Source: an uncultured delta proteobacterium (lineage in GTDB: Bacteria > Desulfobacterota > Desulfomonilia > UBA1062). From it: a stretch of 64,000 bases of DNA. The notes below the pieces were generated by a model. The model made no database searches. It was not told where the DNA came from and saw only the letters and a list, made by a program, of their open reading frames with translations. The translations under genes and the position numbers were made by a program. Location of the stretch: positions 64,001 through 128,000 of the forward strand of contig CAWCTR010000007.1 of assembly GCA_963798485.1 (NCBI GenBank). The letters run 5' to 3'. Shown piece by piece: positions 58,492-64,000 of the stretch (within the stretch, counting starts at the first letter, position 1; the number at the start of each line of letters is the position of its first letter).

Positions 58492-58572
58492 ATCCTGAAA
58501 AAAGCAATGCTTGACCCTGCGGCCTTCCAGGGATAAACCATTACACTTATTGGATCTGTGGAGGTAAAGGGG

Positions 58573-59073
58573 ATGAACGGGAAAAGGGTAAATGAAAGCA
58601 TGGTGTTGATGGCCCAGCTGATGACCCCTGAAGACGCCAATCCGGCAGGGAATGTCCACGGCGGGGTGATAATGAAACTCATCGATAATGCCGGAGGCAC
58701 GGTTGCTGCCAGGCATGCCCGAAACAATGTGGTCACAGCATCCATCGACCGTCTGAGTTTTCACAAACCGGTCTATATAGGGAACCTCATTACACTCAAG
58801 GCCAGCTTAAACATGGCCGGTACAACCTCCATGGAGGTGGGCGTGCGTGTAGAGGCTGAAAATCTTCTTACAGGAGAGGTGTGGCATACGGCATCGGCCT
58901 ACCTTACCTATGTTGCCCTGGATTCCAACTCGAAACCCATGAGGATTCCACCCCTGATCGTGGAGAACAATGAGCAGTCCCGGCGTTACCAGGAGGCCAA
59001 TGCGCGCAGAGAACTAAGGCAACTCGAAAAAAAGCGTGAGGCCGTTCGCCAGAAGGACGAGGGAAAGGGATGA
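58573..59073 (+). CDS. Acyl-CoA thioesterase (hotdog fold, YciA-like)
   Basis: DANPAGNVHGG..MKLID, VVTASID, TSMEVGV. Confidence 0.93.
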   Translation: MNGKRVNESMVLMAQLMTPEDANPAGNVHGGVIMKLIDNAGGTVAARHARNNVVTASIDRLSFHKPVYIGNLITLKASLNMAGTTSMEVGVRVEAENLLTGEVWHTASAYLTYVALDSNSKPMRIPPLIVENNEQSRRYQEANARRELRQLEKKREAVRQKDEGKG

Positions 59074-59180
59074 AGGTCGGGCCACAGTCTTTCATGGGAA
59101 GTCGAGGAGACCGGATTCTGCCGCTTTCTCCTTATTCTGAATATGTTCGGTTAGACCAACCTATCTTGATCCCGCAAGCC

Positions 59181-59759
59181 TTAGTCCGGCAATCCTGCAT
59201 CGACCTCATCACGCAACTTCTTCAAGTTCACTGCGAGCATGCGCGTCCACTCTCCCTCGCCGATCAGGCCACGATTCGAAGAAATCAGGTCCTCGAAGGT
59301 CACCTTTTCACTCTGCTCCTTTTTTAGGAGCTTGGCTCCCACAACAGACAAGGTCATGGTCGGTGTCAACAGCTTTACTTCAGGGAACTTCGGATCATCG
59401 TGAAACACGATGCAGAGGATATCCCCGGCCTCCATCAAGCTCTCTTCAGAAGCAGCTTCTTCTTCAGATTTTTCAATGGGGCGACCCTTATCATCGCCCA
59501 GAATGAAATATCTCCGGGGGACAGCGTAAACCTGAGACAGCGATGCCGCGTATGATCTCGATATTCCCAAGTCCAGCAACCGCCTGAACAGTTCAACAGC
59601 GTAGACATCGCCGCGCGTAAAGATGCCCCGGCTACCCTGGCCTTTGGCCGGGGTGTTCGGCGTGACAAACCCAAGCCTTATCCATTGGCGCAGCCTCTCG
59701 GGCTCAATATTCAACGCCTTGGCGACATGGCTTGATGAAAATTCATTGCGCTTATCCAT
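59181..59759 (-). CDS. MerR-like HTH protein
   Basis: FS...VAKALNI...RLRQW...GFV.P......GSR..F...D; C-terminal half unrecognised. Confidence 0.75.
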   Translation of the reverse strand: MDKRNEFSSSHVAKALNIEPERLRQWIRLGFVTPNTPAKGQGSRGIFTRGDVYAVELFRRLLDLGISRSYAASLSQVYAVPRRYFILGDDKGRPIEKSEEEAASEESLMEAGDILCIVFHDDPKFPEVKLLTPTMTLSVVGAKLLKKEQSEKVTFEDLISSNRGLIGEGEWTRMLAVNLKKLRDEVDAGLPD

Positions 59760-59770
59760 ATTTCCCTCAT

Positions 59771-59946
59771 GTTACTTTCTTTGCTTGCCCAAAGAAAGTA
59801 ACCAAAGAAAAGGCACCCCGCGAAACAGCCCCTTCGGGGTTCACTGCGGTGCTCGGGAAAATCCTGAAGCAAGCCAACTCGCTTCGCTCAAACATGGGCT
59901 TGCTTCTTTACGGATTTTCCCTGCGCTCCTCGCCTGTTTCGAGGGG
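59771..59946 (+). repeat. ~180-nt multi-hairpin element, copy 1
   Basis: Five nested stems; homologous to the reverse complement of 62912-63095 with compensatory changes. Confidence 0.85.
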
Positions 59947-59979
59947 CCAAAAACCTGAGCAGCAAAAGCAAACCATCAA

Positions 59980-60059
59980 CTATTACTTTGTCCCACGGGC
60001 AAGCCCTTCGGGCTTAGCCCGTGCCACCCACGAATTTTATATATCTCTTCCAGGCCACC
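59980..60059 (+). repeat. ~80-bp hairpin repeat, copy A
   Basis: CACGGGCAAGCCCTTCGGGCTT(A)GCCCGTG core; near-identical to 61121-61198. Confidence 0.9.
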
Positions 60060-60116
60060 TGACCGGTCGGGTTAACCAACATATATAATAGATCAATGTC
60101 TGGCACCGGTCAATAT

Positions 60117-60171
60117 CGTGAACATTCCATAGTATGGAGACCATGGTGCCATCTTCGAGCGCTTGTTCGCC
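60117..60171 (-). other. Degenerate attC site of the toxin-antitoxin cassette
   Basis: R'' GGCGAAC 13 nt after the toxin stop is the exact complement of the cassette's entry R' GTTCGCC; inner arms are decayed and the distal end is uncertain. Confidence 0.5.
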
Positions 60172-60184
60172 AAATCTATTCCGT

Positions 60185-60448
60185 CTATTCGTAATGAGTC
60201 CACATACGGATGACCTTTACTGCATTCATGTCATCCAGAATCTGGTACACCAGCCGGTGCTGGATATTTATCCTTCGGGAACATGCCCCTGATAGGTCTC
60301 CCAACAGTTTCTCATATGGCGGCGGGCTCTGGTAGGGATCTTCTTTGAGGAGCTCGAGCAGGCGTTGGGTTTGAGGTTTCAGGCCGGAGCGTGCGATCTT
60401 CTTAGCGTCTTTCTTGGCCTGTTTGGTGAAAATCAACCGCCAGGTCAC
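60185..60448 (-). CDS. yoeB: Txe/YoeB family toxin
   Basis: P.EKL.GDL.G..SRRINIQHRLVY ... RMWTHYE. Confidence 0.93.
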   Translation of the reverse strand: MTWRLIFTKQAKKDAKKIARSGLKPQTQRLLELLKEDPYQSPPPYEKLLGDLSGACSRRINIQHRLVYQILDDMNAVKVIRMWTHYE

Positions 60449-60687
60449 CAGTCAATATCCTCTTCGCACTCCTCGATAGGGGTCTTAAGTCCCTCCTGGA
60501 TAGATTCGCGCATGCCGGGTATTGATGTGAGGTACAAGGTCTCCTGGATTGCACGCCAGTCTTCTTCAGAAACGAGGACTGCAGAATTCCTCTTCCCCAC
60601 TATTTGAACCGGCTCATGTGATTCTTTTACCTCATCGACAAGGCTATACAGGCGTTTCCTTGCTTGGGTTGCGGTGAGTGTCGGCAT
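60445..60687 (-). CDS. yefM: Phd/YefM family antitoxin
   Basis: AT.AR..LY.LVDEV..SH.PV.I, AVLVSEEDW.AIQETLYL; AGGAGG site; GTGA overlap with the toxin. Confidence 0.93.
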   Translation of the reverse strand: MPTLTATQARKRLYSLVDEVKESHEPVQIVGKRNSAVLVSEEDWRAIQETLYLTSIPGMRESIQEGLKTPIEECEEDIDW

Positions 60688-60705
60688 AGTTCCCAACCTC
60701 CTTTT

Positions 60706-60744
60706 CGTACGTCATATCGTACGCCCAGAGGCGGCTCATGTCAA
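60706..60744 (-). promoter_or_regulatory. TA promoter TTGACA-17-TACGAT with two CGTACG operator cores
   Basis: -35 at 60744-60739, -10 at 60721-60716; palindromes at 60706-11 and 60718-23. Confidence 0.85.
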
Positions 60745-60754
60745 GATCTTTGAA

Positions 60755-60818
60755 GGCGAACGTCATGGATCAGCCGCGTGGGCAATAGCCCGCTCCCGAC
60801 AGGATGGGCTGGTTAGGC
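60755..60818 (-). other. attC integron recombination site
   Basis: GCCTAAC...ATCCTGTCG..GGGC-tatt-GCCC..CGGCTGAT...GTTCGCC, 64 bp, starting 10 nt after a stop codon. Confidence 0.75.
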
Positions 60819-60828
60819 ATAAACGTCT

Positions 60829-61080
60829 TCATTCATTAATCGCACCTGACCTTATTTTTCCGATGGTTAGTGGCTTTTGATAATATCTTTCTTTATTCTT
60901 AATACAAATTAGGCCGAAGCCTCTGCCTTTTGTGCCCATCAGACTTAATCGCCTTAATTCATTTATTGACCCTGAAACTATTATTCTATTTTCATAACAA
61001 TTCAATATCAATCATATCTATTAATAAATTGGTTTTATCTGGGAATAAGATTAATCTTCCAAAACACATCCTCTGATCAA
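60829..61080 (-). pseudogene. AT-rich 3' remnant of a cassette gene
   Basis: Short ORF ends just before the attC; 5' part is missing at the repeat cluster. Confidence 0.45.
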
Positions 61081-61120
61081 GTTAACCAATAAATAGAAAC
61101 GTTCCTTTTTCTCTTTTTAC

Positions 61121-61198
61121 CTATTACTTCGTCCCACGGGCAAGCCCTTCGGGCTTCGCCCGTGCCACCCAGGGATTTTGTATCTTATCCAAGCCACC
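61121..61198 (+). repeat. ~80-bp hairpin repeat, copy B
   Basis: Direct repeat of 59980-60059. Confidence 0.9.
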
Positions 61199-61201
61199 CG
61201 C

Positions 61202-61620
61202 GCGAGGGGCGAGTTCTTGCATCTTTTCAGGATGCTTAGCGAGGTATACGGTAAGCTCTTCGTTTACACTTGAGAAATCGGTAATGAGTGAAGGGGCTAT
61301 CGCTTCCTCATGGCGACTTTACATTAGCGGGAAGATATCGGCGAGTGGTACGTACTTCGTGTATCCTTGCGCGTCATGTTGATTAGTGTAGGGATAGTAA
61401 ACGATCCCCTTGGCTTTCTTATGCCTTTGGCGTGGCGCTCATTCTCGTCTTGTGATCAGCGCACAGAAACGGGCATGTGAAGTTCCTGTTCAAAGAATTC
61501 GTGCTTGTCGTGCAGGTAATAGTCATAGAGATACACCTCATACTCCGGTCTTTGTCCACATCTAAGAACAGTGCACAACGTATCTGTTTGGTATTGTATA
61601 TATCTCTTCGGAACCCTCAT
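61202..61620 (-). pseudogene. Decayed, 3'-truncated cassette gene; probably the N-terminal part of an Mrr-like restriction endonuclease
   Basis: Manual translation shows frameshifts and an in-frame TAA, ending VNEELTVYLAKHPEKMQELAPR, which resembles the segment preceding the xFE motif of Mrr-type domains. Confidence 0.55.
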
Positions 61621-61630
61621 TCTGTAATCA

Positions 61631-61695
61631 TGCGAACACTCCACATCACCGGGAGGCCAGCTTTATGGCCGATGCGGTGCATGCAGTGGTTATAG
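61631..61695 (-). other. attC integron recombination site
   Basis: CTATAAC...ATGCACCG..GGCCA-taaagc-TGGCC..CGGTGAT...GTTCGCA, 65 bp, with an extrahelical base in L''; 14 nt after a stop codon. Confidence 0.82.
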
Positions 61696-61709
61696 AAATC
61701 ATTCGTCGT

Positions 61710-62426
61710 TCATTCATCCGGGTATTTCACTCGGAAATAGCCGATTAACGGGAAATACGTCGTGTTTATGTTCCTAAGGCTGATAATTTGCAGAGGAGCT
61801 ATTTTTTGTAAAGTACCTATTCCCACCGGTGCCATTGTGTCGTTGCCAGGAGATGCCAAGATAAAACCAAAACTCCCTACCTGCCCTTTGAAAAAGGCTA
61901 GATCTCCAGGTAATGGTTTATCAGTCATCTCGAAAGATCTCATCATCGTATCAGAGAGTCTTTCTCCCGGAACAGTCTGTATCCTTACCCCTACTTTCTC
62001 AAGCACGTACTTGAGGAATCTGGGCGAATCAAACCCTAAACCAAGCTGGCTGCTACCCAGTGTAAATGGAATATCCTTCCACGCAAGTAGGGTTGCAGCC
62101 AAGACCGCATCTTTGCGTTTTCCTGCAGGCATCTCAATGATTCTTTGTTTAACTTTCGGCCAGTCCACGCTCGGGTCTATTATACTGATGTTATCCTGGC
62201 CGGTCACTGAGCCCAAGAAATCCAAGAGAGAGCTTTGAGTGCTGGATAAGCTGAGTATTTTTTCACTGAGTTCTCTTACCGTCTTTTGTTTGTTCGCCAA
62301 AGTATTTTCAAGTCTATGTAATTCATACGCCGAATATCCCAATGCAGCAAATACGATCAGGACACCCAGTAATGACAGTGAGGCATTACGGAGTGACGCT
62401 TTCCTTAAGGCTTCAACTGATTTCAC
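61710..62426 (-). CDS. Membrane-anchored coiled-coil protein with a degenerate NlpC/P60-like domain
   Basis: TM helix, coiled coil, PFTLG....GFDSPRF..YVL and LPGDLAFF. Confidence 0.7.
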   Translation of the reverse strand: MKSVEALRKASLRNASLSLLGVLIVFAALGYSAYELHRLENTLANKQKTVRELSEKILSLSSTQSSLLDFLGSVTGQDNISIIDPSVDWPKVKQRIIEMPAGKRKDAVLAATLLAWKDIPFTLGSSQLGLGFDSPRFLKYVLEKVGVRIQTVPGERLSDTMMRSFEMTDKPLPGDLAFFKGQVGSFGFILASPGNDTMAPVGIGTLQKIAPLQIISLRNINTTYFPLIGYFRVKYPDE

Positions 62427-62707
62427 TATTTCTTATCCTCCTTATCAGTTGAAGGGATCAAACGTTTCAGCGCTTCATTCCACATGTACAGAAGTCTCCC
62501 GGTAGAATAAGTGATGAGGCCTGAAGAACCAAACGACAGGGACAATTCGGCGTAACCGCCTCGGTCCCTGAAGAACAAAAACATGGTACTGCTAATCAAT
62601 ATAATGAGAGACAAGATGCAGATGCCCATATATACCATTCGTTCGAACTTAAACAGTTCGGTCAGCTGCCTGACTACTTCCATCCGCTCTTTAATGTCGT
62701 CTGGCAT
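62426..62707 (-). CDS. Small two-TM protein
   Basis: GAGAGG before MPDDIK; two hydrophobic helices; TAG/GTG overlap with the downstream gene. Confidence 0.72.
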   Translation of the reverse strand: MPDDIKERMEVVRQLTELFKFERMVYMGICILSLIILISSTMFLFFRDRGGYAELSLSFGSSGLITYSTGRLLYMWNEALKRLIPSTDKEDKK

Positions 62708-62911
62708 TCTACCTCTCAGTCTCAATTACATAATTACTATACTGCACTTTTGTAGTACATCACCATTGTTATCTGAAGCACAATTGCAGTATATCCTGAT
62801 ATTGAGTGCAAGGTATTATTCTGTTTATATATTATACCAGATATCACTTTCCGCACCAATCCCCTCAGTTATTGCAAAAATCTTGGTCAGCTCTCGTTTT
62901 TTACTTTTAAT

Positions 62912-63095
62912 CCCCTCTGAACCCGGTGAGCGAGTGAAGGAAAATTCAGGGGAAAAGCGGCCCATGTCTGAGCGGAGTGAAACGGAGCGAGTTGGCCGCG
63001 GCCTGAATTTTCCGAACGAGCGAACGCACCCGAAGGGCGGGTTCATGGGGTGCCTTTTCTTTGGTACTTTCTTTTGGCACCAAAAGAAAGTACAT
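62912..63095 (-). repeat. ~180-nt multi-hairpin element, copy 2 (inverted)
   Basis: Same stem order and conserved linkers as 59771-59946. Confidence 0.85.
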
Positions 63096-63150
63096 AAATA
63101 AACGCTTGGTTACACTTTACTCCACCCACCATACATCCTCTATGATAGAC

Positions 63151-63188
63151 CCCATCCCCACCCCGGCCCTCCCCTTGAAGGGGAGGGG
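63151..63188 (-). repeat. REP-like palindrome of the same type as 35615-35656
   Basis: CCCCTCCCCTTCAAGGGGAGGGCCGGGGTGGGG on the minus strand. Confidence 0.65.
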
Positions 63189-63278
63189 TGAGATCGCCCC
63201 GCTCAAGTGATTTTTGAAAAAACATGGATTCCTCCCTTCTGCGTGAATGACGCAACCGGGGTCTCTCTTTTTAATCCT

Positions 63279-63310
63279 GGCCCGGCCATTACGGCCGGGC
63301 CTTATTTTTT
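63279..63310 (+). terminator. Intrinsic terminator hairpin downstream of gyrA; T tract on the plus strand
   Basis: GGCCCGGCC-attac-GGCCGGGCC-TTATTTTTT. Confidence 0.75.
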
Positions 63311-63336
63311 AGGTATTCTCGTGATGAGACGCCTGT

Positions 63337-64000
63337 TTACTCGGCGTCCTCTTCGCTGATGTATTTGGTGAAGTCCACGATCTTCTCATCTTCCTTCATG
63401 CGTATGGCGCGCACGCCCTGGGCCGAGCGCGTCCTGGTGGTGCGGATCTGGGACACGGGCATGCGGATGATCTGGCCCGAGGTGGAGATGATCATGAGCT
63501 CGTCGGTCTCCTTGATAACCCTCACGCCCACCAGGTCACCGGTCTTCTTGGTGATGTGGACCGTGTTTACGCCCTTGCCGGCCCGGTTCTGGACCGGATA
63601 CTTGCCGACGACCGTCTTCTTGCCGAAGCCGTACTCGGTGAGGTTGATGACCATGTCGTCGTCGCTGGTGATGACATCCATGCCGATGACCGAATCGCCC
63701 TCGTCGAGCCTGATGGCCCGCACCCCTTGGGCCTGGCGGCCCATGACGCGGACCTGGTCGGCCGGGAAGATGATGGCCTTGCCGCCCTTGGATGCAACAA
63801 TGATGCGGGTGCTGCCTATGGTGATGCGGGCCGACATGACCTCGTCGCCCGGCTCCAGCGTGCAGGCGATGATGCCGGTGCGCACGATGTTGCTGAAACT
63901 CTTGAGCTCGACCCGTTTGATGTTGGCCATGGCGGTTACCATCACGACCTCGGCCTCCATGTTGATGTCGGTGGTGACCAGGATGGCGCAGATGCGCTCC
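63337..64000 (-). CDS. gyrA: DNA gyrase subunit A, C-terminal beta-pinwheel (gene begins beyond the window)
   Basis: Repeats MGRQAQGVRAI, QNRAGKGV, RSAQGVRAI and an acidic tail; parC not fully excluded. Confidence 0.88.
   Translation of the reverse strand, partial: ERICAILVTTDINMEAEVVMVTAMANIKRVELKSFSNIVRTGIIACTLEPGDEVMSARITIGSTRIIVASKGGKAIIFPADQVRVMGRQAQGVRAIRLDEGDSVIGMDVITSDDDMVINLTEYGFGKKTVVGKYPVQNRAGKGVNTVHITKKTGDLVGVRVIKETDELMIISTSGQIIRMPVSQIRTTRTRSAQGVRAIRMKEDEKIVDFTKYISEEDAE

What the first reader, a model, noticed from the sequence alone, without database searches (positions are those of the whole stretch)
59771..63095. Pair of inverted ~180-nt structured elements with compensatory changes enclosing a 3 kb cargo
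Seen (copy 1 versus reverse complement of copy 2): terminal hairpin TTACTTTCTTTG/CAAAGAAAGTAA vs GTACTTTCTTTT/AAAAGAAAGTAC; identical linker CAAAGAAAAGGCACCCC; long-range stem CGAAACAG/CTGTTTCG vs TGAACCCG/CGGGTTCA (three compensated pairs); shared CCCTTCGGG tetraloop; GGAAAATCC/GGATTTTCC vs GGAAAATTC/GAATTTTCC; conserved apical AACTCGCT...CGCTCARACATGGG. The linker repeats CAAAGAAA, so the first arm has two possible partners. Structure is kept while sequence drifts. The copies face outward around the TA/attC cargo, with no transposase or clear target duplication. Inference: a structured RNA or ssDNA element, possibly non-autonomous mobile ends that capture cassette arrays. I recall similar intergenic sequences in other bacteria but know no name or function for them.
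Basis: partly seen in the sequence, partly recalled or inferred. Interest (0 to 1): 0.8.

Follow-up and report, generated by a model that had tools for sequence, protein, structure and literature searches.

The report
Structured repeat arms bracketing defence cassettes
Two inverted copies of a folded, roughly 190-base repeat are the two arms of a widespread miniature mobile-type element that, in this bacterial lineage, brackets swappable anti-phage and toxin-antitoxin gene cassettes at fixed chromosomal sites.

Summary
Window 59767-59953 (+) and 62906-63098 (-) are two diverged copies (79% column identity) of one structured element with no Rfam match. It has 12 copies in this genome. It also occurs in 11 of 36 genomes of the same family and in named genomes of Desulfurivibrionaceae, Halothiobacillaceae, Thiobacillus and Ilyobacter. 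The fold is strongly supported: 94.7% of cells are paired, 25 of 44 pairs change on both sides, and 0 of 500 shuffles reach the observed values.

The copies pair up. Among 82 strong hits in nine genomes I count 18 convergent pairs within 10 kb and no divergent pair. In Hydrosulfovibrio and Ilyobacter the two arms abut as cargo-less units of about 390-530 nt. In the window's genus they enclose variable cargo at the same loci in different species. The cargo includes TA pairs, TIR, reverse transcriptases, type IIG R-M, UzuA and many unknowns.

No transposase, target duplication or co-occurring enzyme was found; MerR-like, Y1 transposase and IntI were tested. Whether the folded form is DNA or RNA is unresolved. 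A terminal 50-nt module is identical between phyla and has the layout of an intrastrand triplex motif.

Best reading: arms of a new MITE/MIC-like family that now act as bookends of defence-cassette bays.

The parts
59767..59953 (+). Arm 1 (subtype T1), whole element as matched by the covariance model. The outer end is at 59770.
   Evidence: cmsearch 171.6 bits, E 7e-40. Fold z -5.98. Groups with the MerR-side arms of G002 and G003 in the tree (100/99 support).
59772..59801 (+). Terminal hairpin P0 of arm 1: pyrimidine arm TTACTTTCTTTG, loop CTTGCC, purine arm CAAAGAAAGTAA.
   Evidence: Sequence. Helix 1 is 96.3% paired across 69 rows, and 5 of its 12 pairs change on both sides.
59802..59819 (+). 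Purine linker CCAAAGAAAAGG followed by CACCCC. Together with TGT and P0 (59770-59819) it forms a 50-nt module identical to one in Ilyobacter polytropus pILYOP01.
   Evidence: Exact 50-nt match; the rest of the arm is only about 52% identical. Mirror versus direct test.
59816..59946 (+). Core fold of arm 1: CCCC...GGGG closing stem, CGAAACAG/CTGTTTCG long-range stem, CCCC-TTCG-GGGG hairpin, GGGAAAATCC/GGATTTTCCC arm, and an apical part with AACTCGCT and CGCTCAAACA.
62906..63098 (-). Arm 2 (subtype T2), read on the minus strand. The outer end with hairpin P0 is at 63064-63093 and the linker at about 63052-63063.
   Evidence: cmsearch 207.3 bits, E 1.5e-48. Fold z -4.77.
59980..60042 (+). Accessory GC hairpin D1a just inside arm 1 (CACGGGC-AAGCCC-TTCG-GGCTT-GCCCGTG).
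   Evidence: Direct repeat D1, 92% identical to 61121-61183. The same hairpin lies just inside arms, in the arm's orientation, at other loci of G000, G002 and G003.
61121..61183 (+). Second copy of the accessory hairpin (D1b) in the middle of the cargo. It may mark the junction of two modules or be the remnant of a lost arm.
60185..60696 (-). Cargo: type II toxin-antitoxin pair. YoeB/ParE-like toxin at 60185-60448 and Phd/YefM antitoxin at 60445-60696.
   Evidence: Pfam YoeB_toxin 3.7e-9, ParE_toxin 5e-8, PhdYeFM_antitox 6.9e-18.
61710..62725 (-). Cargo: two-gene unit. A 99-aa two-transmembrane protein at 62426-62725 and a 238-aa protein at 61710-62426.
   Evidence: Both Pfam hits are weak and below the curated cut-off: CyanoTRADDas_TM 0.0024 and NLPC_P60 0.0032. 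No PADLOC hit.
62733..62862 (.). AT-rich inner margin next to arm 2, shared with the inner margins of arms at other loci. About 100 nt of it also occurs at 4 places in G007, which has no arms.
59181..59759 (-). Left flank: 192-aa MerR-type HTH gene whose start codon lies 10 nt outside the arm-1 hairpin. It is not the family's partner.
   Evidence: Pfam MerR_1 2.8e-7. Found in 4 of 61 relatives and 0 of 5 other element-bearing genomes.
63337..64000 (-). Right flank: 3' end of gyrA, with its own terminator-like hairpin at 63279-63301 between gyrA and arm 2.
   Evidence: ORF. The orthologues in G002 and G003 hit the DNA_gyraseA_C and DNA_topoisoIV Pfam families. Terminator scan.

Best explanation
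The two copies are the left and right arms of one unit of a multi-copy, non-autonomous, MITE-like element family that has not been described.

Each arm is about 180-200 nt and has three parts:
- an outermost pyrimidine/purine hairpin (P0);
- a purine linker that tends to mirror the hairpin's purine arm;
- a CCCC...GGGG-closed branched fold.

The basic unit is two non-identical arms facing each other with the hairpins outermost. In some genomes the arms abut and the unit holds no cargo. In the window's genus the space between the arms is a cargo bay holding defence-type and toxin-antitoxin genes.

Shown: the family, the fold, the pairing rule, the cargo diversity at fixed loci, and presence/absence between close relatives.

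Inferred:
(i) The unit is moved in trans by an enzyme not encoded inside it. That enzyme recognises the ultra-conserved terminal module and needs the arm folded, most simply as single-stranded DNA, because both strands look equally constrained.
(ii) Once a unit sits at a locus, its cargo is replaced by recombination within or between arms, which serve as portable homology and possibly as break-prone non-B DNA. Different species and strains therefore carry different cassettes between related arms.
For: Family and fold:
- 12 copies in the genome at 102-224 bits.
- Covariation as given in the observation check.
- The same architecture is predicted for arms from Ilyobacter and Halothiobacillus, with z -5.5 and -10.1.

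Pairing:
- 82 hits of at least 95 bits in nine genomes give 18 convergent pairs within 10 kb, 0 divergent and 2 same-direction (my count).
- Cargo-less abutting pairs of about 390 nt with two distinct arm types occur in Hydrosulfovibrio ferrireducens.
- An almost empty bay of 340 nt occurs in G024.

Mobile-type behaviour:
- The element matched in 11 of 36 genomes of family f1 and 0 of 24 of f2.
- G007, whose AsnRS-like protein is 96% identical, has 0 hits and lacks both arms and cargo at the two loci compared.
- The family occurs in named Desulfurivibrionaceae, Halothiobacillaceae, Thiobacillus and Sulfuriferula records, with about 100 matches in one genome.
- Ilyobacter polytropus pILYOP01 holds six dispersed 97-100% identical arms. 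A 17-nt terminal inverted repeat occurs there 39 times against 2 for the reversed control, mostly as pairs 375-531 nt apart.
- 50 nt of the terminal module are identical between the window and Ilyobacter, while the rest of the arm is about 52% identical.

Cargo turnover:
- The gyrA/MerR-like locus carries at least six different cargos. They are in G000, G002, G003 and metagenome loci L295, L309 and L312.
- The tatC locus has four different cargos and the spoU locus at least four.
- Cargo DNA is not shared between loci except for the margins next to the arms.
- 12 of 48 cargo proteins hit PADLOC models: type IIG R-M, TIR-TM, UzuA, reverse transcriptases, PDC candidates and a HEPN-like protein.
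- MerR-side arms of three species form a clade (100/99), and so do phaE-side arms (95/83). Other arms do not group by locus. Mixed arm histories are what exchange within arms would give.
Against: - No transposase or recombinase recurs in or beside the cargo. The IS481 and Mutator transposases seen are secondary insertions.
- No enzyme tracks the element. Y1 transposase is in 7 of 10 carriers and 9 of 10 non-carriers. IntI is in 7 of 10 and 4 of 10.
- No target-site duplication was seen at the window pair, in Hydrosulfovibrio or in Ilyobacter, and the outer boundary in Ilyobacter is fuzzy.
- No precise empty-site junction exists, because the intergenic DNA in G007 differs altogether.
- Arms that group by locus across species show long residence, so movement in this genus is not recent.
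- A plain transposase-binding end does not need an internal fold, so the enzyme class is a guess.
- All genus data come from metagenome-assembled genomes; G000 has 6.96% contamination.
Confidence: 0.55

Rival explanations
1. The arms are functional RNA, not DNA signals. By geometry, every cargo transcript reads outward through an arm in antisense orientation, and every inward-reading flanking gene meets the sense orientation. The arm would be a portable 3'-UTR module that stabilises or insulates transcripts. On the outward strand the two U-rich tracts and the A-rich tract of the terminal module could form a U-A-U triple helix that caps the 3' end. The repeat spreads as a selfish MITE but is kept for this service.
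For: - Conserved fold with compensatory changes.
- The outward strand folds somewhat better (-85.7 vs -77.8 and -78.8 vs -71.9 kcal/mol).
- A-C mismatches on the sense strand, which are G-U on the outward strand, outnumber G-U 76 to 50.
- About 29 of 42 outer flanking genes point their 3' end at an arm (my tally).
- bcr1 of Bacillus cereus is a transcribed MITE-like repeat with compensatory changes at the RNA level (passages of PMC3184786).
Against: - No U-run follows the hairpin in either direction, so it is not an intrinsic terminator.
- gyrA has its own terminator-like hairpin before the arm.
- The G-U/A-C asymmetry is weak, and both exceed the other mismatch types, as expected from single transitions.
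- There are no expression data.
- 50 nt conserved exactly across phyla looks more like a protein recognition site than an RNA fold.
- A 3' bias of neighbouring genes is common for any tolerated intergenic insertion.
Confidence: 0.2
2. The arms do not transpose in this lineage. They are resident recombinogenic bookends. The terminal module forms an intrastrand triplex or other non-B DNA that stalls replication and provokes breaks. The 190-nt arms, shared by many loci and strains, give homology for RecA-driven replacement of whatever lies between them. The fold matters only through DNA structure.
For: - The terminal module has the layout pyrimidine stem, loop, purine stem, loop, purine stem. This is the layout of the TM-ECO/BoxC intrastrand triplex motif, which forms a triplex in vitro and marks loci that are more rearranged between E. 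coli strains (PMC4666352: abstract, sections 15-16 and passages).
- Among 51 informative distinct arm/linker combinations, the mirror relation fits better in 21, ties in 20, and the direct relation fits better in 10.
- There are many cargo alleles at fixed loci, with arms partly grouping by locus.
- An inverted synteny relative to G007 has its breakpoints at the accC/AIR-synthase-like pair.
Against: - It does not explain how the family reached several phyla, about 100 matches in one genome, or six 97-100% identical dispersed copies in Ilyobacter.
- It gives no reason for the conserved branched core.
- The mirror signal is modest.
- No biophysical test was done.
Confidence: 0.15
3. The arms are folded single-strand recombination sites of a tyrosine recombinase (attC-like, used by the genome's integron integrases) or of a Y1 HUH enzyme (giant REP/REPIN-like doublets moved by a RAYT).
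For: - G000 has three integron integrase genes above the curated cut-off (437-460 bits, cut-off 265).
- attC sites and REPs are recognised as folded single strands (established knowledge).
- REPINs are inverted doublets without target duplications (recalled).
- The long-range stem of most window-genus arms contains AAC...GTT.
Against: - IntI was not found in G002 (100% complete, 13 strong arm hits) and is present in G007, which has no arms. Overall it is in 7 of 10 carriers and 4 of 10 non-carriers.
- Arms are inverted rather than in one direction as in cassette arrays. They are 180-200 nt and lack RYYYAAC/GTTRRRY boxes.
- AAC/GTT is lost in the G024 and Halothiobacillus arms.
- No arm lies on the contigs that carry intI.
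- Y1_Tnp was not found in the Halothiobacillaceae genome with about 100 matches and is present in 9 of 10 non-carriers.
- There is no GTAG/CGTC tag, and no Y1 gene is flanked by arms.
Confidence: 0.07

Closest known systems
MITE-like interspersed repeats with a conserved fold, e.g. bcr1 of the Bacillus cereus group
   Same: Non-coding, multi-copy, patchy between close relatives, with compensatory base changes that keep a two-arm structure. [quoted passage not shown]
   Different: bcr1 is about 155 bp, has 5-bp direct repeats at its flanks and carries no genes. Here the unit is two 180-200-nt arms, no duplication was seen, the family spans several phyla, and in one genus the arms enclose 0.7-6.6 kb of genes. 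No sequence or Rfam relation.
Mobile insertion cassettes (MICs: IS231-derived MIC231, Tn3-derived MICs)
   Same: Passenger genes between the two inverted ends of a transposable element with no transposase inside. The term and the idea are recalled; I saw only search listings of papers that use it.
   Different: MIC ends are the short terminal repeats of a known IS or Tn whose transposase acts in trans. Here no parent element or transposase was found, and the ends are long, folded and non-identical. The cargo differs at the same locus between species, which suggests exchange in place rather than repeated transposition.
BoxC / TM-ECO intrastrand triplex repeats of enterobacteria (Holder et al. 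2015, PMC4666352)
   Same: Pyrimidine stem, loop, purine stem, short loop, second purine stem. Always intergenic, extremely conserved, with no transposase or integrase nearby, and found at loci that are unusually rearranged between strains (abstract, sections 15-16 and passages).
   Different: TM-ECO is a 37-nt G/C-rich motif standing alone. Here the motif is A/T-rich with 8 potential triads. It is only the outer 45-50 nt of a 190-nt folded arm, and the arms come in inverted pairs around cargo. Triplex formation was not tested here.
REP / REPIN doublets with RAYT transposases
   Same: Palindromic extragenic repeats that occur as inverted doublets without target duplications and persist at loci (recalled; PMC3733652 seen only as a listing and the start of its abstract).
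   Different: REPs are 20-40 nt with GTAG or CGTC tags and have a RAYT gene flanked by REPs. Here the arms are five times longer and untagged, and Y1 transposase does not track them.
Integron cassette arrays (attC) and pdif modules of Acinetobacter plasmids
   Same: Small gene modules, often TA or defence genes, delimited by recombination sites. attC sites act as folded single strands. pdif modules are bounded by inverted sites (pdif recalled only).
   Different: There are no attC boxes, arms are inverted rather than in one direction, and they are far longer than attC or the 28-bp pdif. IntI does not track the element. Xer was not tested.

Membership tests
MITE (non-autonomous inverted-repeat element) | Many dispersed copies, patchy among close relatives | tested here: met
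   12 copies in G000. 11 of 36 family genomes have it, and 0 hits in G007, the closest relative compared. 97-100% identical dispersed copies in Ilyobacter.
MITE (non-autonomous inverted-repeat element) | Terminal inverted repeats bounding a short non-coding unit | tested here: met
   Abutting arm pairs of about 390 nt in Hydrosulfovibrio. 375-531-nt units bounded by a 17-nt repeat in Ilyobacter, 39 matches against 2 for the control. The window unit itself is 3.3 kb with genes, so it is the cargo-bearing form.
MITE (non-autonomous inverted-repeat element) | Target-site duplication | tested here: inconclusive
   None recognisable at the window pair, in 5 Hydrosulfovibrio units or in 13 Ilyobacter units. 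The outer boundary in Ilyobacter is not sharp.
MITE (non-autonomous inverted-repeat element) | A parent element with the same ends and a transposase | tested here: not met
   No transposase lies between arms except secondary IS481 and Mutator insertions. The long-range repeat pair in Ilyobacter encloses ordinary genes. Only part of each genome was inspected.
Mobile insertion cassette | Passenger genes between element ends, no transposase inside | tested here: met
   Window cargo is a TA pair plus two genes. Other pairs are covered.
Mobile insertion cassette | Ends identical to those of a known IS or Tn | not testable with these tools
   No ISfinder here. Rfam, plasmid and phage-contig searches gave no named element.
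Integron attC / cassette array | R''(RYYYAAC)...R'(GTTRRRY) boxes paired in a 57-141-nt hairpin, all sites in one direction | tested here: not met
   A crude scan gave 0 hits in window 59001-63400, against 3 hits in the first 30 kb of the intI-bearing contig C5, 1 in C19 and 0 in C12, so the scan is insensitive. Arms are inverted and 180-200 nt.
Integron attC / cassette array | Co-occurrence with integron integrase | tested here: not met
   IntI is in 7 of 10 carriers and 4 of 10 non-carriers. It was not found in G002 and is present in G007.
REP / REPIN-RAYT | 20-40-nt palindromes with GTAG/CGTC tag and a cognate Y1 (RAYT) gene | tested here: not met
   Arm length and sequence. PF01797 is in 7 of 10 carriers and 9 of 10 non-carriers, with 0 hits in the genome with about 100 matches.
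Intrastrand triplex motif (ITxF definition: three blocks, stems 6-15 nt, loops 1-6 nt) | Pyrimidine block, purine block and a second purine block that mirrors the first | tested here: met
   For T2 arms such as arm 2: CTTTCTTTT / AAAAGAAAG / AAAGAAAAG with loops of 4-6 and about 5 nt. The hairpin of arm 1 is one A shorter. Mirror fits better than direct in 21 combinations, worse in 10, with 20 ties. Definition taken from PMC4666352 section 15.
Intrastrand triplex motif (ITxF definition: three blocks, stems 6-15 nt, loops 1-6 nt) | Triplex actually forms | not testable with these tools
   Needs CD, NMR or footprinting.
Described RNA family (Rfam 15) | Match at gathering score | tested here: not met
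   0 matches in the 64-kb window. The best sub-threshold hit is 24 bits against a cut-off of 90.

The most novel reading that the evidence does not exclude
The arms define a gene-capture platform of a new kind. They are folded, triplex-capped DNA bookends that create exchangeable defence-cassette slots at fixed chromosomal loci. The slots spread between phyla as empty miniature units and work without any recombinase of their own. In effect this would be an integron-like cassette system without an integrase, in which arm-guided recombination or an unknown host enzyme that reads the 50-nt ultra-conserved terminal module does the swapping. It would also give a mechanism for the recombinase-less defence hotspots seen in many bacteria.
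Probability: 0.22. Interest if true: 0.85.

Novelty: new variant of a known kind. Interest (0 to 1): 0.68.

Why it matters
Defence genes are known to cluster in hypervariable hotspots, many of which show no integrase or transposase. How cassettes get in and out of such sites is an open question.

Here a recognisable sequence signature marks both borders of such hotspots across a whole genus: a pair of folded 190-nt arms with an ultra-conserved end. The same signature exists as an empty miniature unit in other phyla.

- This gives a searchable handle (a covariance model) for finding new defence candidates. 36 of the 48 cargo proteins tested had no PADLOC hit.
- It gives two cultured carriers in which mobility, transcription and DNA structure can be tested.
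- It gives a concrete link between non-B DNA motifs and gene turnover.

If the element is simply a MITE with passengers, it is still a new, widely spread family with unusually strong evidence for a functional fold.

Tried and rejected
- Rfam: nothing at gathering score, and nothing meaningful at E up to 10.
- RNA evidence: no RNA holder was listed for window 58500-63400. Contigs of four DNA runs laid on it were short fragments with no joints. The loose ends at 59780 and 63092 only show other copies of the repeat. Nothing follows on expression or excision.
- MerR-like neighbour gene as partner: present only in G000, G002, G003 and G013 of 61 genomes. 0 of 5 non-carrier genomes of the genus and 0 of 5 other carriers. 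Rejected.
- Y1 transposase and integron integrase as partners: no co-occurrence.
- attC in the cargo: the crude scan found none, but its sensitivity is low.
- Strand of the fold from G-U versus A-C counts: 50 against 76, not decisive.
- Promoter and terminator scans: promoter-like sites are at chance level (6 against 5.3). No terminator-like site lies at the outer hairpin of either arm. The one site inside arm 1 (59886-59899) is a weak 5-pair stem in its apical part.
- Target duplications and exact empty sites: not found. G007 has unrelated intergenic DNA at both loci compared. The accC locus is rearranged in G007 rather than empty.
- Viral contigs: 10 pattern matches, of which only 1 is a weak model hit at 24 bits.
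- Plasmid collection: only Ilyobacter.
- A possible long cargo-bearing unit in Ilyobacter (873.7-885.5 kb) holds ordinary genes and no transposase.
- Shared cargo between loci: none beyond the arm margins.
- Literature: word searches for MITE plus defence, cargo, hotspot and structure, for bcr1, and for mobile insertion cassettes found no description of this element. Three searches cannot show that it is not in print.

Full report
**1.

Window 59767-59953 (+) and 62906-63098 (-) are two copies of one element.
- The inverted repeat is found mechanically.
- The two copies align at 79% column identity.
- Each copy folds much better than shuffled controls on both strands, with z from -4.8 to -6.1 and 0 of 200 shuffles as good.
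- Rfam has no match at gathering score in the whole 64-kb window. Nothing better than a 24-bit microRNA look-alike appears at relaxed threshold.

**2. It is a family with a selected fold**

The window's assembly (G000, 32 contigs) holds 12 copies in two subtypes. T1 resembles copy 1 and T2 resembles copy 2.
- RNAalifold on 11 of them gives 44 pairs, 13 with compensatory changes.
- A covariance model (R1) collected 69 rows from this genome and its relatives. On these, 94.7% of cells pair (84.9% in shuffles) and 25 of 44 pairs change on both sides (14.6 in shuffles). 0 of 500 shuffles reach any measure.
- Sliding the partners gives 39-61% pairing.
- The alignment is fitted to the model, which favours the structure, but the margin is large.

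Each arm has the same anatomy:
- an outermost hairpin P0 with a pyrimidine 5' arm and a purine 3' arm;
- an unpaired purine linker;
- a CCCC...GGGG stem closing an 8-11-bp long-range stem;
- a small CCC-TTCG-GGG hairpin;
- a long arm whose apex carries AACTCGC and CGCTCAGACA.

A CTCGCT-like word recurs three or four times in the unpaired parts. Counts of G-U (50) against A-C (76) in paired columns of 49 full-length rows give no clear strand.

**3. The copies are paired ends**

In the table I count 82 hits of at least 95 bits in nine genomes.
- Eighteen convergent pairs lie within 10 kb, written plus then minus, so the P0 hairpins are outermost.
- There is no divergent pair and there are two same-direction neighbours.
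- G000 itself has three pairs: the window pair, C7:261985-269013 and C11:14248-15334.
- Four of its six unpaired copies lie within about 2 kb of a contig end.
- The two arms of a pair are usually different subtypes.

In Hydrosulfovibrio ferrireducens the arms abut as units of about 390 nt with two distinct arm types and unrelated flanks. G024 has a pair with only 340 nt between the arms. A Halothiobacillaceae MAG has about 100 matches, many in alternating plus/minus arrays.

**4. What lies between and beside the arms**

Window cargo:
- a YoeB/ParE-like toxin with a Phd/YefM antitoxin;
- a 99-aa two-transmembrane protein with a 238-aa protein, both with only weak Pfam hints;
- two copies of a 63-nt GC hairpin, D1;
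- AT-rich non-coding DNA.

Other G000 bays hold the following:
- GIY-YIG, a group II intron-type reverse transcriptase, a second reverse transcriptase and a 477-aa protein;
- a 134-aa protein;
- a type IIG restriction-modification enzyme;
- an HNH protein with a 1106-aa ATPase and an FRG protein;
- MazF.

The outer neighbours are housekeeping genes: gyrA, an AsnRS-like synthetase, phaE, accC, pyruvate kinase, tatC and a SpoU methylase. About 29 of 42 outer neighbours point their 3' end at the arm (my tally).

Of 48 cargo proteins from G000, its relatives and metagenome contigs, 12 hit PADLOC models and 36 hit none. The hits are type IIG R-M, TIR-TM, UzuA, two reverse transcriptases, a Ppl/AriA-like ATPase, PDC-S15, S31, S32, S35 and M03B, and PD-Lambda-3_B/HEPN.

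**5. Same loci, different cargo**

- Between gyrA and the MerR-like gene:
  - G000 has the TA pair plus the two-gene unit.
  - G003 has a DUF4145 protein and two small ORFs.
  - G002 has a 371-aa protein and a TIR protein.
  - Metagenome contigs of the same locus have a Pycsar-type TIR effector (L295), an AbiJ-like protein with DUF2239 (L309), and three unknown ORFs (L312).
- The tatC locus has four alleles and the spoU locus at least four.
- Cargo DNA is not shared between loci. Only the 100-250 nt next to the arms are shared, and these include the D1 hairpin.

In a tree of 36 arms, the MerR-side arms of three species form a clade (100/99). The phaE-side arms do too (95/83), together with G000's AsnRS-side arm. 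The tatC and spoU arms do not group by locus. So some arms have stayed at their locus since before these species split while the cargo changed, and other arms were themselves exchanged.

**6. Presence and absence**

The model matched in 11 of 36 genomes of the family and 0 of 24 of the neighbouring family.

G007 has an AsnRS-like protein 96% identical to that of G000 but has no hit.
- At the AsnRS-like locus it has 68 nt between the stop codon and a tRNA gene, where G000 has 7.3 kb.
- At the gyrA locus it has 906 nt of AT-rich non-coding DNA in place of the MerR-like gene, arms and cargo.

Because the intergenic DNA differs throughout, there is no exact junction and no target duplication can be read.

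**7. Spread beyond the lineage**

A 17-base pattern scan of species genomes, followed by the model, recovers the family in several named groups:
- records labelled Desulfurivibrionaceae, Desulfurivibrio, Thermodesulfobacteriota and Deltaproteobacteria;
- Hydrosulfovibrio ferrireducens;
- Halothiobacillaceae, Halothiobacillus, Thiobacillus, Sulfuriferula and Hydrogenophilales;
- a few singletons that may be mis-binned.

The plasmid collection gives one record, Ilyobacter polytropus pILYOP01 (Fusobacteriota), with six dispersed arms 97-100% identical to each other.
- There the unit has a second, different arm.
- It is bounded by a further inverted repeat (AAATTAYTGAMTTTATC). This occurs 39 times against 2 for the reversed control, mostly in pairs 375-531 nt apart, with four arm types in various combinations.
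- Fifty bases (TGT, P0, linker, CACCCC) are identical between the window's copy 1 and Ilyobacter. The rest of the arm is about 52% identical, yet it folds into the same architecture.

Such conservation of the end, set against free drift of the core under a structural constraint, points to sequence-specific recognition of the end and shape-only use of the core.

**8. Search for a partner enzyme**

- No recombinase recurs in or beside the cargo in 29 loci of genomes and 23 metagenome loci. The IS481 copy that splits an arm and a Mutator-family transposase are secondary.
- The MerR-like neighbour is confined to four close genomes.
- Y1 transposase and integron integrase are both common in carriers and non-carriers.
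- The enzyme, if there is one, remains unknown.

**9. The terminal module**

The linker is not simply a second copy of the hairpin's purine arm.
- In the T2 arms A4-G-A3 is followed by A3-G-A4.
- In a Halothiobacillaceae variant A2-G-A4 is followed by A4-G-A2.
- Over 51 informative distinct combinations, the mirror relation fits better in 21, equally in 20 and worse in 10.

Pyrimidine block, purine block and mirrored purine block with short loops is the definition of an intrastrand triplex motif. The G/C-rich TM-ECO/BoxC repeat of E. coli has this layout. It forms a triplex in vitro, is intergenic, has no mobility genes nearby, and marks loci that are more rearranged between strains (PMC4666352: abstract, sections 15 and 16, and passages). 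That paper also states that purine-motif triplexes do not form in RNA. The complementary strand could form a pyrimidine-motif triplex as DNA or RNA. This is a lead, not a result.

**10. Reading**

The best-supported account is that the finding is one cargo-bearing unit of a new MITE/MIC-like family, and that its arms have become the bookends of defence-cassette bays in this genus.
- Mobility is supported by copy number, patchiness, cross-phylum spread and near-identical copies in a complete replicon.
- Mobility is weakened by the lack of a transposase, of target duplications and of exact empty sites.
- Cargo exchange in place is supported by many alleles between arms that partly group by locus.
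- Whether the fold acts as single-stranded DNA, as non-B DNA that provokes recombination, or as RNA on cargo and neighbour transcripts cannot be decided with the data at hand. These are kept as rivals.
- The attC and RAYT analogies fail their membership tests.

**11. Limits**

- All genomes of the window's genus are metagenome assemblies. G000 has 6.96% contamination, and one small contig (C15) duplicates a locus of C11.
- The pair count rests on my reading of one table.
- The covariation test uses a model-fitted alignment.
- The attC scan is crude.
- Only three literature searches bear on novelty.

Noticed in passing
G000:C5:12795-13733, C19:228-1175, C12:6524-7471 (outside the window): Three integron integrase genes score above the curated cut-off (437-460 bits, cut-off 265). 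A typical 63-nt attC-like site lies at C5:5857-5919. No arm lies on these contigs.
   Followed up: partly
window 60772-60818: A 47-nt hairpin ending in GTTAGGC, which matches the integron R' core consensus, lies upstream of the TA pair. It has no paired R'' box, so it may be a half-site or chance.
   Followed up: partly
G000:C15:1-6119 versus G000:C11:15151-18700: The 6.1-kb contig C15 repeats the PhoH, PTPS, folE2 and AIR-synthase-like genes and the T1 arm of C11, then ends 154 nt after the arm. This is probably a second strain or an alternative arrangement at this bay. In G007 the accC and AIR-synthase-like blocks are in inverted relative order, with the breakpoints where G000 has the pair.
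   Followed up: partly
G000:C4:416040-416070, C10:130-170 and 250-310; L071:1938-1960; L079:1900-1920: A small nested module of two GC hairpins (GCGCCCGAAGGGCG and GGCCATGGATGGCC) replaces the 5' arm of the terminal hairpin in several arms. It is also inserted in the apex of the C10 arm. The same GGCCATGGATGGCC hairpin is a regular part of the Halothiobacillus arms.
   Followed up: no
L073:2096-3572 (G003:C34) and L301: An IS481-family transposase gene (387 aa) is inserted within an arm just after the linker and splits it. The same insertion is seen on a metagenome contig.
   Followed up: no
window 62733-62833: An AT-rich stretch of about 100 nt, with an internal 15-nt inverted repeat, lies between arm 2 and the first cargo gene. 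It occurs at four places in G007, which has no arms. It could be a mobile promoter or operator region.
   Followed up: no
window 60875-61092: The AT-rich non-coding centre of the cargo is 67% identical (E 8e-27) to part of the 906-nt AT-rich spacer that G007 has at the same locus. Part of the 'cargo' may therefore be old intergenic DNA.
   Followed up: partly
L031 (G000:C7:262000-269000): This cargo bay holds a group II intron-type reverse transcriptase (RVT_N, RVT_1, GIIM), a second reverse transcriptase, a GIY-YIG protein and a 477-aa protein with PADLOC PDC-S31 hits. A tRNA gene lies just outside the phaE-side arm.
   Followed up: no
L150 and G061 contigs C48, C11, C55: In a Halothiobacillaceae MAG, short (about 140 nt) and long (about 207 nt) arms alternate in plus/minus arrays with spacers of about 47 and 180-230 nt, and GCGGGCGAG/CTCGCCCGC words lie outside the hairpins. 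Many of the matches lie close to contig ends.
   Followed up: no
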